Below, one piece after another: positions 10,601 through 13,600 of a stretch of DNA of 64,000 bases. A program made the position numbers. The stretch is from an uncultured delta proteobacterium. GTDB lineage: Bacteria > Myxococcota > Myxococcia > Myxococcales > Myxococcaceae. Position 1 is the first letter of the stretch. Each line of letters starts with the position of its first letter. The stretch is from assembly GCA_963771175.1 (NCBI GenBank), contig CAVYSY010000035.1:1-64000 (forward strand), read 5' to 3'.

Positions 10601-13600
10601 GCGCACCACCATCGCCACCGCCGCCGTCAACATGCTCGGTGGCCAGGAGATGATGGAGGCCAGCCGCACCCCGGAGATCATGTCCGACGCGGCCCATGCC
10701 ATCCTCACCCGCGACAGCCGCGCGTGCACCGGCAACTTCTTCATCGACGAGGACCTGCTCCGCGAGTCCGGTGTCACGGACTTCGAGAAGTACAATGTGA
10801 AGCCCGGCACGCAGCCGCTGCCGGACTTCTTCCTCGACTGACGAGGGAGGGCTCGCTCGGGATTCGGAGGAGTCGCATGACGAGGAAGTTGCTGCTGCTG
10901 TTGCTGTCTCTCGCTCTTGCCGCCTGCGCCCGGTCCACCCGTCCGGACGAGGCGGGCAAGGCCTTCAAGTCCTCCCTGGTGGTGCTGCTCGATCACCGGG
11001 GCGAGCTGGCGCTCACCGCCGAGCAGGTGGATCGGTTCGAGAAGCTGGACTTCGCGCTTCACGAGAAGAACCTCCCGCTCCAGTTCAAGCTCGAGAGCCT
11101 GCGCCCCAAGAAGGGTTCGACCGTCCGCTCCGGGTCCGGGGGCTACATGGGAGGAGGTTCCCATGACCTTCATGGAGGGAAGGGGGGCGTCATGACCGAT
11201 CCGGCGAATCCGGAGGTCGCGCAGCGGGAGGCGAGGCGCCTGCAACTGGAGGAGACAAAGGCCACGTTGCGCGAGATGCAGGACAACGACTCCAAGGCCT
11301 ACCTCGAGGCGGAGAAGTCGCTGAGCGAGGAGCAGAAGCCCCGGGCTCGAGCGCTCGTCACACAGGAGCGTGAGAAGCTGCTCAAGCAGCTCGAGGCCAT
11401 TCACCACCGGTTGCGCCGGGGCGACTACTGAGGGGCGTTCAGGCGAGGTGCTGGATCCAGATGTTCCGTGTCGCGACATGGGACATCTGGACCAGATCCG
11501 CGATGCGCTGCCCCGGGGGGAGGGGTCGGTTGAACGGGTAGCCCGACTCGCGGGTGTCCGTGGGGTCCTCGCCCGCATGGTCCTGCTCCCAGTCGGTCAG
11601 CATCACCATGAGCCGGAAGAGCATGCCCTCGTTCCGGCCGCGCGGCAGCAGCAGGTGGGCGGGCCAGCCGTGTTCACGCACGATGGACGCGTGGCGCGAG
11701 GGCCGGAAGATGACCGCGCGCTCCGAGGGGCGCAGCGTGTGGACGAACCGGTCCAGCTCCATCCACAGCCGGCGATCCTCGGCGAACGCATCCGCGGCGA
11801 GGTAGATGCGCACCGTCACCTTCTGCTCGCGCGGCAGCAGGTTCTCCACGCGCAGGAGGAAATGGAACGGGTCGTGGTCCAGGTGCGGCTTGAGCACCTC
11901 CCGCCCGTCCGGAAGGCGCACCGGGTGCTGCGCCATGCGGGTGGTGAGGAGATGGGTGCTCGAGCGGAAGGCCGGAGGGGGGCTGTTCCAGCTGTCTCCG
12001 CCGAAGGTGGCCTCGCCCCACCGTTGCCCGTCGAAGTCCGGTGCGGATGCCTCGGGGATATCTCGGAGCGGGCACAGGAGGATGTCCGGGCTCTGGTGCG
12101 CCGGAGAGTGCCCCTCGCCGAGCCACTTGCGTATCAGCACTCGCGGCCCGTCGGACAGGTCGTGCGGCGGCAGGTGGGTGCTCTGCCAGGCGTCGAGGAT
12201 GTCATCCACGTGGCGGTGCCAGCGGTAGAAGAGCGGCTCCCTCGCGGCGGTGGCCGGGGAGGCCATGACGCCGAGCAGTCCCGTCCTGCCAGGCGGAGTC
12301 AGGCTGGCCAGGAGGATGTGTCCCAGGTTGTGGTGCGAGCCGTAGTGACCGAGCGGATCCGCCCAGGCCTCGCCGTCCACGGAGCCCAGGTTGGACTCGG
12401 CGGTGTCGGCGAGCTGCTCCAGGCTCTCGATGAGGTAGGGCGTCTCTCCGCGCCACAGCAGCCCCGAGGAGGCCGCGGTGAAGAGGCGGTCCCGGCGCAT
12501 GGCGTGGTCCGTGATGCCGTAGCCGGGCAGGTCCCTCATGCTCAGGCCGGGAGGCCGGGGCGCGAAGCCCGGGAGCTGGGCGTCATAGCCCTCGTTGATG
12601 GGGGAGGCGTAGTCCGCCAGGGGCTCGACGCGGGGCATACCGAACGCCAGCCGCTCGGTGTCGTAGCGGGCCAGGAGTTGCTGGTGCGTGTACCAGAACA
12701 GCTCTCCCCGCCGTTCCGGGAGGAGGCGGCGCTGGGGTTGCGCCGGGTCCGGGTGACCGCCCGCCGGGTACTGGGTCCACCACGTGTCGAGGAAGTCGTT
12801 GAGCCCGGTGTCCTCGCGGAAGTAGTCGAGCCAGATCTCCGCGCCGGGAGTACCCGCGGGCCCCTTCCTGACGGGCGCCTTGCGCAGGGAGGGAAGCACC
12901 TGGTTCGGAGCGCGCTCCAGCAGGGACGGCACGGACAGTCCGCGGCCCTCGGGGTGATGGACGATGAAGACGCGTAGCGCGTACCGCACCCACTCGGCGT
13001 CTCCGTGTTGCACCTGCCGTTCGGCCTCGTCGAGCACCGCCGCCAGTCCCGTCTCTCCAGGGCTTGCGTTGGCCAGCTCCATGAAGCGGGCCGAGAGGGA
13101 CAGCGCGTGCTGGAGGTGGGCGGGCAGGAAGGGGAGGAAGCGATGCGTGGGGGAGGGGGGCGCGAACAGCTCGAGGTCCCCTCGGGGTGTCAGGGGCAGC
13201 GGAGCCGGTGCGGACTCCCGACACAGCAGGGCCCGGAGGCGGGTGTGCAGTGCCTCCATCGCTCAGTCGAGGCCGACGTAGATGTTCTGGACGTCGTCGT
13301 CCTCGTCCATCGCCTCGAGGAACGACTCGACCTCGGTCGCGGGCCTCGCCCTCGAGCGTGCACGGGGTTCTTGGCGATCCACGCGAGGTTCTGCGAGCTG
13401 CACCGTCCAGCCCAGGCCCGTCAGGGCCCGGCTCACCGCGTCGAGCTCGGTGGGGGCGGTGAGGAAGCGGGTCGCGCCCTCCTCGCCGGTCTCGAGGTCC
13501 TGCGCGCCCGCCTCGATGGCGGCGGTCTCGGCATCGGCGCCGCCGCTGGGGGGCGTGGCCTCGATGACGCCCAGGCGGTTGAAGTCCCACGACACCGCGC

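What a model noticed while it worked through the whole genome (the two positions that open the first line are those of the whole stretch)
11439..13259. Bacterial arthropod-type hemocyanin/prophenoloxidase homolog; the Archangium-Cystobacter clade has shed its copper ligan [...]
g05833 (606 aa) is a full-length member of the arthropod hemocyanin/prophenoloxidase superfamily (Hemocyanin_M plus Hemocyanin_C), which the surveys I found report only from eukaryotes. It belongs to a broad bacterial family that keeps all six Cu-binding His. Only the Archangium/Cystobacter clade has lost them piecemeal (this protein lacks two CuA His), a bacterial parallel to copper-free hexamerins.
Evidence so far: Best solved-structure hits are scorpion and Limulus hemocyanin (E 1.6e-50) and insect PPO. 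AF2 model pLDDT 93 matches Limulus hemocyanin at TM 0.76, E 6e-35. 198 homologs found, best 120 examined. Of these, 89 of 89 full-length proteins outside the clade keep all six His (one N-truncated fragment left out), 0 of 30 inside do (1-5 kept; calls 24, 29, 196); the 30 form one clade, FastTree support 1.0. Named hosts of homologs include Vicinamibacterales, Kofleriaceae, Actinomycetota, Sphingomonas, Chloroflexia. The gene lies directly behind yebC in 13 of 15 Archangium/Vitiosangium/Cystobacter loci, so it is not contamination. Paper searches found no report of a bacterial arthropod-type member.
(Added by a program. Inside this text positions count along the whole contig: contig position 1 is position 1 of the stretch shown here. 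"Call 12" and the like, gene names such as g00115 and contig names such as C1 are that model's own, and its searches are not shown. The text may have been shortened before it was handed on; [...] marks where a part breaks off. The agent that wrote the report below was given it as the finding of a first reader that could run no searches.)

Follow-up and report, generated by a model that had tools for sequence, protein, structure and literature searches.

The report
Copper-less relic of bacterial prophenoloxidase system
A soil myxobacterium keeps a copper-less copy of the enzyme insects use to blacken and kill invaders, and its intact relatives in other soil bacteria often sit beside protein-cutting enzymes, which points to an undescribed, untested bacterial version of that protease-triggered defence.

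Summary
Confirmed: window 11439-13259(-) encodes an intact 606-aa protein of the arthropod hemocyanin/prophenoloxidase (PPO) superfamily (PDB E 1.6e-50; model TM 0.76 to Limulus hemocyanin) that lacks two of six copper histidines. Published surveys call this family eukaryote-only, yet it is scattered across many soil bacterial phyla, where 132 of 134 loci keep six His. The larger result lies in those relatives: about half of well-flanked loci have a protease within two genes (caspase-like, CHAT, subtilase, trypsin, zincins; background about 1%). Many carry a stand-alone copy of the PPO shield domain with Tyr where PPO has its placeholder Phe, and caspase-linked PPOs repeat one short motif on both sides of the shield. 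This reads as a bacterial protease-activated pro-phenoloxidase, probably a conflict/defence effector. The window gene nests inside the caspase-linked clade but has lost partners, motif, four-Cys loop and, piecemeal, the ligands, while the fold stays under purifying selection (omega 0.135): most likely a non-catalytic pseudo-enzyme. No assay exists; defence role, origin direction and the relic's job are inferred. 'Only this clade lost His' has two singleton exceptions.

The parts
11439..13259 (-). Degenerate prophenoloxidase/hemocyanin-superfamily gene, 606 aa (P0001)
12885..13259 (-). N-terminal shield domain (about residues 1-125); no signal peptide by inspection; lacks the [LIV][EQV]x[LM]G motif of caspase-linked relatives
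   Evidence: aligns with Limulus 46-125; helical in model; motif 0 of 42 clade loci
13128..13130 (-). Placeholder Phe44 (Phe in 18 of 30 clade proteins, 85 of 89 six-His relatives)
12198..12836 (-). Hemocyanin_M dicopper domain (residues 142-354)
12684..12791 (-). CuA site: Leu157 and Trp161 replace His; His192 kept
12216..12398 (-). Glu288 (30 of 30 in clade), CuB His310, His314, His348 kept here, Asn311, gate residue Pro335 (Thr in 68 of 89 relatives)
11448..11969 (-). Ig-like Hemocyanin_C domain with two deletions (near residues 530 and 565) that remove the four-Cys loop
   Evidence: Cys motifs 0 of 30 in clade, 89 of 89 outside
13263..13967 (-). yebC/PmpR paralog (one of three in the genome), 3 nt upstream; host gene behind which the PPO gene sits, probably translationally coupled
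14002..14544 (-). Type IV pilin-like gene upstream of yebC (host context, not a PPO partner)
10877..11431 (+). Convergent 184-aa ORF with a lipoprotein-like N-terminus, no family hit; not a protease or solo shield domain

Best explanation
Two layers. (1) The intact bacterial family is a latent, cytoplasmic, arthropod-type pro-phenoloxidase: an N-terminal shield domain parks a Phe over a six-His dicopper site; a co-encoded protease cuts it (in the caspase-linked branch probably at the motif repeated on both sides of the shield), opening the site so that it oxidises phenols to quinones. In many operons a stand-alone shield domain with Tyr in place of Phe can then dock on the opened enzyme and present that Tyr to the coppers, as substrate for quinone cross-linking or as a caddie/cap. 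The most likely biological role is a protease-gated conflict/defence effector. (2) The window gene is an orphan of the caspase-linked branch, acquired once by the ancestor of the window's genus and its sister genus and inserted behind a yebC paralog without its partners. It lost the first CuA His, the four-Cys loop and the repeated motif early and the other ligands piecemeal later, so it is no longer a dicopper oxidase; its fold is still selected, so it most likely works as a non-catalytic binding or scaffold protein (a pseudo-phenoloxidase). Shown: homology, residue states, gene neighbourhoods, tree position, selection. Inferred: cleavage, oxidase activity (about 0.75), defence role (about 0.5), Tyr as substrate (about 0.5), non-catalytic role of the window protein (about 0.7).
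For: Six His in 132 of 134 non-clade loci; placeholder Phe 85/89, Glu288 89/89, four-Cys motifs 89/89. Protease within two called genes: 26 of 64 GTDB loci (25 of 49 with 3-kb flanks), 25 of 75 metagenome loci (7 of 16), 0 of 16, 0 of 2 and 0 of 24 clade loci; 1.3% of random places in the window's genome (families). Protease types sit on separate branches. Caspases keep DxCR 17/17, GHG 16/17. Solo shield domains: Tyr 16/16 in GTDB loci versus Phe in 21 of 22 PPO shields and 4/4 split shields; Tyr 16 of 20 in metagenome loci. Complex model scores 0.92 versus best control 0.41 (mark reached by 116 of 157 solved and 2 of 215 mismatched pairs; runs agree 83%, partner pLDDT 86 or more) with Tyr35 on the second CuB His. 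Motif in linker 14/15, both sites 12/15 of caspase-linked PPOs. Clade nests in the branch holding all 14 caspase-linked PPOs in the tree, SH-aLRT 98.6. omega 0.135 with omega=1 rejected; 79 of 132 family-invariant columns kept, the relaxed ones clustering at the active site; His sites change 2-7 times on a 23-genome tree, to scattered residues. Match in 17/17 own-genus, 7/8 sister-genus genomes.
Against: No activity, metal or cleavage measured. About half of well-flanked six-His loci have no adjacent protease; several sit with oxidative or biosynthetic genes (DyP, ferritin-like, multicopper oxidase, P450, NRPS). PADLOC gives no PPO hit and no clear defence islands among 124 neighbours from 20 loci. 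MBL, nuclease and Y4kD neighbours could be the proteases' real substrates. Some subtilases are convergent, one looks secreted. The motif was read off the same sequences and the caspase-linked PPOs are one clade. The complex resembles the domain I/II contact of solved hemocyanins, so the pass may be likeness. The window protein itself keeps a full CuB triad, Glu288, Asn311 and Phe44. One six-His set had omega 0.145, like the clade. 3 of 19 non-split metagenome solo domains have Phe.
Confidence: 0.6

Rival explanations
1. The window protein is a repurposed one-metal enzyme, like fungal AsqI (Zn at one tri-His site), using the CuB triad and Glu288.
For: Window protein keeps His310/314/348, Glu288, Asn311; Glu288 and Pro335 never change on the 23-genome tree; AsqI is the precedent (PMC6053404 passages).
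Against: CuB triad intact in only 16 of 30 clade proteins and CuA triad in 0 of 30; each CuB His was lost 2-3 times independently, mostly to non-ligands; no conserved biosynthetic neighbours. AsqI keeps the equivalent of His310 although it is dispensable there, so its retention can be structural.
Confidence: 0.13
2. The intact family serves pigment, secondary-metabolite or envelope/spore cross-linking chemistry; proteases are maturation enzymes or chance neighbours, not immune triggers.
For: Loci with DyP, ferritin-like, multicopper oxidase, haem peroxidase, P450, cupins, NRPS; no PADLOC hit for PPO; about half of loci lack a protease.
Against: Partners are modules typical of conflict systems: caspase plus Y4kD, CHAT-TCAD7, trypsin-nuclease fusions, MBL with subtilase (PMC12642450 section 4); extreme patchiness (0 of 400 sampled genomes of one host phylum); most adjacent proteases lack a signal peptide.
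Confidence: 0.3
3. The window gene is a slowly decaying, functionless remnant kept by linkage to yebC.
For: omega twice that of yebC (0.135 vs 0.063); loss of partners and catalytic features; a broken copy in L064 and a 108-aa fragment copy in L013.
Against: omega=1 rejected (lnL -15767 vs -16880); retained columns omega 0.022; open frame without stops in 24 of 24 full-length matches across 61-96% identity; in L064 neighbouring genes are also in pieces, which suggests assembly errors.
Confidence: 0.07
4. The window protein is a copper-free storage protein in the strict hexamerin sense (abundant hexameric amino-acid reserve for fruiting or spores).
For: Same superfamily and same kind of ligand loss as hexamerins; fold conserved.
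Against: No expression, abundance or oligomer data; sequence far closer to six-His enzymes than to hexamerins (E 1e-9); sits behind a translation/regulatory gene, not in a developmental cluster.
Confidence: 0.08

Closest known systems
Arthropod prophenoloxidase and its activating cascade (Manduca PPO 3HHS, Anopheles PPO8 4YZW, Aedes PPO6 8JIB)
   Same: Three-domain fold, placeholder Phe on the second CuB His, catalytic Glu, four C-terminal Cys, no signal peptide; activation by proteolysis (PMC4092376 and PMC11761970 passages). The six-His bacterial members have all sequence features.
   Different: Bacterial; protease encoded next door and of several unrelated families; extra solo shield domain with Tyr; the window copy lacks two His, the Cys loop and partners.
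Hexamerins, arylphorins, pseudo-hemocyanins
   Same: Superfamily members that lost copper His but kept the fold.
   Different: Independent bacterial origin from a PPO-like enzyme; not secreted; no evidence of storage; still 4 of 6 His.
Fungal AsqI cyclopenase (5YY2)
   Same: Hemocyanin-fold protein with an incomplete ligand set.
   Different: AsqI keeps the CuA triad for Zn and lies in a biosynthetic cluster; the clade keeps no triad consistently and has no such cluster.
Bacterial protease-effector immune modules (gasdermin with C14/CHAT; MBL with trypsin, caspase or subtilase)
   Same: Latent effector beside caspase-like, subtilase or trypsin proteases; patchy distribution; 43 of 50 gasdermins sit next to proteases; MBL pairs with the same protease classes.
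   Different: The effector would be a dicopper oxidase; no oxidase, tyrosinase or hemocyanin is mentioned in PMC12642450, PMC7159879 or PMC8195603 (term searches); no sensor identified.
Streptomyces tyrosinase with caddie protein (Tyr98)
   Same: A small co-encoded protein places a Tyr in the dicopper pocket, where it becomes a quinone (PMC6312201 abstract).
   Different: Caddie is unrelated in fold and pairs with a secreted alpha-type tyrosinase (recalled); here the partner is a duplicate of the enzyme's own shield domain.

Membership tests
Arthropod-type hemocyanin/PPO superfamily (beta-subclass type-3 copper fold) | Hemocyanin_M plus Ig-like Hemocyanin_C in one chain | tested here: met
   Pfam above cut-off for both; Foldseek TM 0.76 to 1oxy
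Arthropod-type hemocyanin/PPO superfamily (beta-subclass type-3 copper fold) | Helical N-domain with placeholder Phe | tested here: met
   Phe44 aligns with the Limulus N-domain Phe; Pfam Hemocyanin_N itself not hit
Active prophenoloxidase (window protein) | Six copper His | tested here: not met
   L157, W161
Active prophenoloxidase (window protein) | Two C-terminal disulfide (four-Cys) loop | tested here: not met
   deleted; 0 of 30 in clade
Active prophenoloxidase (six-His bacterial relatives) | Six His, placeholder Phe, catalytic Glu, four Cys | tested here: met
Active prophenoloxidase (six-His bacterial relatives) | Latent enzyme activated by proteolysis; oxidises phenols | not testable with these tools
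   only gene neighbourhood and motif evidence
Respiratory hemocyanin | Secreted hexamer binding O2 reversibly | tested here: not met
   no signal peptide by inspection, CuA site broken; oligomer not tested
Hexamerin | Loss of copper ligands | tested here: inconclusive
   partial loss, 4 of 6 kept
Hexamerin | Abundant secreted storage hexamer descended from arthropod hemocyanin | tested here: not met
   nests among bacterial six-His proteins; no signal peptide; abundance not testable
AsqI-type one-metal enzyme | One conserved tri-His site across orthologs | tested here: not met
   CuA 0/30, CuB 16/30
Protease-effector anti-phage module (six-His relatives) | Effector encoded beside a catalytically intact cytoplasmic protease | tested here: met
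   about half of well-flanked loci; catalytic motifs
Protease-effector anti-phage module (six-His relatives) | Location in defence islands or match to known defence models | tested here: inconclusive
   partners match caspase, subtilase, trypsin-like, LmuA models; PPO none; no clear islands
Protease-effector anti-phage module (six-His relatives) | Protects against phage or kills the cell on activation | not testable with these tools
   needs plaque and toxicity assays

The most novel reading that the evidence does not exclude
Soil bacteria carry a true prophenoloxidase immune system: an infection-triggered caspase-like or other protease excises the shield domain, and the freed dicopper enzyme turns the Tyr of a dedicated solo shield protein (and free phenols) into quinones that cross-link or poison the infected cell. 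This bacterial family would be the source from which early fungi and, separately, the animal lineage obtained the hemocyanin/PPO fold, placing melanisation immunity beside gasdermins and cGAS as inherited from bacteria; the myxobacterial gene is a domesticated, disarmed copy.
Probability: 0.3. Interest if true: 0.95.

Novelty: new variant of a known kind. Interest (0 to 1): 0.82.

Why it matters
Two surveys place this protein family only in unikont eukaryotes (PMC3658974: only the alpha-subclass in bacterial and archaeal genomes; PMC3730353: hemocyanin M likely a unikont synapomorphy). A broad bacterial radiation reopens the origin of arthropod hemocyanin and prophenoloxidase. The operons give a directly testable candidate for a new kind of protease-activated immune effector (an oxidase), with predicted cut sites and a predicted protein substrate, and small soluble bacterial PPOs are easier to study than insect ones. 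The window gene adds a genus-wide bacterial pseudo-enzyme whose loss of function can be traced step by step.

Tried and rejected
Contamination: rejected (host-like codon GC; fixed position behind yebC; 17/17 own-genus genomes). The 535-aa + strand ORF 11370-12977 is a shadow (GC 0.89/0.50/0.72). Partners elsewhere in the window's genome: caspase and Y4kD queries and family profiles found nothing but the gene itself and generic MBLs; the genome is 82% complete, so not found is not absent. Expression: RNA-run contigs cover pieces of the gene (X1 260 nt with 6 differences, X5 237 nt with 4, X3 looser), but these are contigs with small word shares and no silent control, so transcription is not shown. 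Promoter scan found no sigma-70 site. Fold search of the solo domain gave no match at E 0.001; the top four rows were AsqI and PPO8 (TM 0.62 to AsqI), so its homology rests on the profile match. NCBIfam and PADLOC have no model for PPO or the solo domain. Fungi nested in bacteria: seen (95/96), a single eukaryote clade rejected under LG+G4 with fast searches (p 0.013) but not under the mixture model (p 0.287): left open. The taxonomy look-up by cluster could not be made, so most metagenomic proteins remain unnamed. Earlier-findings look-ups returned nothing relevant. No protein-surface analysis was possible because model coordinates are not returned.
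Full report
Observation. Window 11439-13259 on the minus strand is an open frame of 606 aa. Pfam gives Hemocyanin_M (E 4.5e-29) and Hemocyanin_C (E 6.4e-19). The best solved-structure sequences are scorpion and Limulus hemocyanin and insect PPOs, over all three domains. 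An AF2 model (pLDDT 94.5, pTM 0.94) matches Limulus hemocyanin 1oxy at TM 0.76, E 7.3e-36. The six ligand positions are L157, W161, H192, H310, H314, H348. The gene is single-copy, has host-like codon GC and starts 3 nt behind a yebC paralog.

Range of the family. The word-indexed search gave 198 homologs, of which 120 were listed and examined; the unfiltered search gave 764 clusters at 50% identity, best 150 listed, a set that includes eukaryotes. A scan of 185,579 species genomes found 181 matching stretches and returned 80 loci from records named Acidobacteriota, Chloroflexota, Actinomycetota, Cyanobacteria, Bacillota, Alphaproteobacteria, Gemmatimonadota and Kofleriaceae, including isolates (Brevibacillus dissolubilis, Acidicapsa dinghuensis, Petrachloros mirabilis). 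A metagenome scan found 329 and returned 80. The family is patchy: 0 of 400 sampled genomes of the phylum of G390 besides the seed. In the window's family, matches were in 17/17 own-genus genomes, 7/8 of genus g22 and 1/1 of g8, with only two weak partial hits among the other 174; in the phylum 11 of 301, all own genus or g22. Named records closest to these proteins are Archangium, Vitiosangium and Cystobacter.

Ligand loss. Of the 120, the 30 closest keep 1-5 His and none six; 89 of 89 full-length others keep six; one fragment was left out. Of 134 non-clade loci spanning the site, 132 have six His and two lack the N-terminal part. Of 147 further representatives, 128 have six, 16 are fragments, 3 have losses: P0242 is Rhizophagus, P0124 and P0187 are unnamed and branch among bacteria. 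So the clade is the only lineage-wide loss found, not the only loss. Of 132 columns at least 93% conserved in the 89, the clade keeps 79 and relaxes 53; the relaxed ones cluster at the CuA helices, His314/His348, placeholder Phe44 (18/30) and two deletions that remove the four-Cys loop (0/30 versus 89/89). In insect PPO, removing these disulfides lowers activity (PMC4092376 passage). On a 23-genome tree the six sites change 7, 6, 3, 3, 3 and 2 times (all-site mean 2.3, retained columns 0.24), to L, V, I, F, R, Q, P, W, N, Y, E. The CuA triad is intact in 0/30 and the CuB triad in 16/30, so no alternative metal site is conserved. Yet the gene is selected: omega 0.135 against 0.063 for yebC, omega=1 rejected, 0.09-0.19 by domain, 0.022 at retained columns, 0.19 at 18 active-site columns chosen after the fact; four six-His sets gave 0.069, 0.043, 0.051 and 0.145 (one sequence with a stop dropped).

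What the intact relatives sit with. Genes were called with my own codon-score script and scanned against Pfam (30, 83 and 138 proteins). A protease lies within two called genes in 26 of 64 non-clade GTDB loci (25 of 49 with 3-kb flanks on both sides) and 25 of 75 metagenome loci (7 of 16), three near-duplicates of GTDB loci left out; in clade loci 0 of 16, 0 of 2 and 0 of 24 (these sets overlap); 1.3% of random places in the window's genome. The profiles were built on the GTDB neighbours, so only the metagenome count is independent, and the background covers four profiles in one other organism. Families: caspase-like C14, CHAT (twice fused to TCAD7), subtilase, trypsin (fused to nucleases in L052, L053, L080), protealysin M4, astacin, M43, and a zincin named only from its HExxH...E motif. 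The caspase is followed by a Y4kD_C protein, a family also found fused to C14. MBL-fold genes accompany subtilase or zincin. Protease types lie on separate branches. About half of the loci lack a protease, and some hold oxidative or biosynthetic genes instead. PADLOC matched partners (caspase, subtilase, trypsin-like, LmuA) but not PPO, and 124 neighbours from 20 loci showed no clear defence islands.

The solo shield domain. Small ORFs of 100-135 aa next to the PPO gene match positions about 26-135 of the family profile. At the placeholder column, 16 of 16 such proteins beside a full-length PPO have Tyr; 21 of 22 PPO shields have Phe (one gap); 4 of 4 shields split off a PPO that lacks its own have Phe. 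In the metagenome loci 16 of 20 have Tyr; of the four Phe, one is a split shield, and two Tyr rows are near-duplicates of GTDB loci, giving 14 of 17. Among 147 representatives the PPO's own placeholder is Phe 123, gap 23, Tyr 1. A model of the L016 core (residues 132-647) with its solo domain scored 0.92 against a best control of 0.41 (mark reached by 116 of 157 solved and 2 of 215 mismatched pairs; runs agree 83%; partner pLDDT at least 86) and put Tyr35 against His313, the second CuB His, where insect placeholder Phe stacks (PMC11761970 passage). This repeats the domain I/II contact of solved hemocyanins, so the pass shows likeness, not binding. The precedent for a partner Tyr oxidised in the pocket is the Streptomyces caddie (PMC6312201 abstract).

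Candidate cut sites. Caspase-linked PPOs carry [LIV][EQV]x[LM]G in the shield/core linker (14 of 15) and also in the leader (12 of 15 both), with both copies varying together in L025; 5 of 103 other loci have both, all cut off downstream by a contig end; clade loci 0 of 42, duplicates included. The pattern was read from these sequences and the carriers are one clade. Double cleavage around the placeholder activates a beetle PPO (PMC4092376 passage). The caspases keep DxCR in 17/17 and GHG in 16/17.

History. The clade has SH-aLRT 100, groups with P0033 (92.4) and lies inside a 98.6 branch holding all 14 caspase-linked PPOs in that tree (73 sequences; similar). The orthologous yebC paralog in 20 loci of other genera has no PPO within 1.5 kb. 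One transfer of the PPO gene alone, then loss of function, is the simplest reading. Deeper: animals plus one EukProt protein form a separate branch (100); 17 named chytrid and Glomeromycota proteins form a clade (99) next to two Chloroflexota proteins (95) (64 sequences); median identities are bacteria-bacteria 0.45, bacteria-fungi 0.42, bacteria-other eukaryotes 0.35. A single eukaryote clade was rejected under LG+G4 (p 0.013) but not under the mixture model (p 0.287). Four animal rows are called arthropod-like from sequence only; no amoebozoan or Aspergillus sequence was available and the root is unknown, so bacteria-to-eukaryote and eukaryote-to-bacteria both remain possible.

Mechanism. 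Most likely, the intact protein is a cytoplasmic zymogen opened by its neighbour protease, producing quinones from the solo domain's Tyr or from small phenols, as a conflict effector comparable to gasdermin and MBL modules (43 of 50 gasdermins beside proteases, preprint passage; PMC12642450 section 4). The window protein, without partners, motif, Cys loop and two His, most likely cannot do this and is kept for non-catalytic binding or scaffolding; what it binds is unknown.

Literature. Ten full-text searches found no report of a bacterial member. PMC3658974 (passages) finds only the alpha-subclass in bacteria and archaea; PMC3730353 (passages) calls hemocyanin M likely a unikont synapomorphy; PMC11803259 (passages) leaves PF00372 out; PMC7159879, PMC8195603 and PMC12642450 have no tyrosinase or hemocyanin term in their main text (figure labels and supplements not seen); PMC2938197 has one unspecified phrase 'hemocyanin-like redox enzymes'. 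Databases already label some members 'tyrosinase family protein' or 'hemocyanin-like protein', and subscription journals were not searched.

Verdict. New variant of a known kind: a bacterial arthropod-type pro-phenoloxidase system, with a genus-wide disarmed copy in the window. Interest 0.82.

Noticed in passing
L015:3308-7654 (+): 1448-aa protein with signal-like N-terminus fusing an alpha-type tyrosinase segment, VWA and a DsbA-like thioredoxin, directly upstream of a frameshifted PPO gene.
   Followed up: no
L057, L058, L073, L078 (about 7612-9518 +), L171: Naturally split PPO: shield domain with Phe is a separate upstream gene and the enzyme starts at the copper domain.
   Followed up: partly
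L036:7215-7610 and homologs in L019, L044, L045, L049, L053, L062, L070, L152, L169, L180, L185: Recurrent 130-170 aa protein of no Pfam or NCBIfam family next to PPO genes of one branch.
   Followed up: no
L016, L019, L023, L043, L046, L053, L113, L114, L123, L153, L160, L180: MerC-like small membrane protein recurs beside PPO genes; may relate to copper supply.
   Followed up: no
L051:11338-13047 and homologs: 570-aa zincin-like protein with HExxH motif, no Pfam hit, always paired with an MBL-fold gene: a possible further protease-MBL module not among the three classes in PMC12642450.
   Followed up: partly
L166:1983-5804, L172:1080-4778: DUF7362-DUF7379-TCAD7-DUF7363-CHAT fusion directly upstream of PPO.
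   Followed up: no
P0157, P0163, P0366-P0444 (fungal proteins): Chytrids and arbuscular mycorrhizal fungi carry six-His members, several copies in Rhizophagus, closer to bacterial than to animal proteins.
   Followed up: partly
L013:12396-12722 (+): 108-aa duplicate fragment of the C-domain 2.6 kb downstream of the intact gene.
   Followed up: no
L011 (Archangium sp. record): Early-branching clade member sits behind an EF-G-like gene, not yebC, with a long N-terminal extension in the called ORF.
   Followed up: no
window 13263-13967: The genome has three yebC/PmpR paralogs; this one is patchy in the family.
   Followed up: partly
window 19269-20507 (-): 412-aa ORF with many weak, repeated Pfam hits (DUF445 and others), suggesting an internally repeated helical protein.
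   Followed up: no
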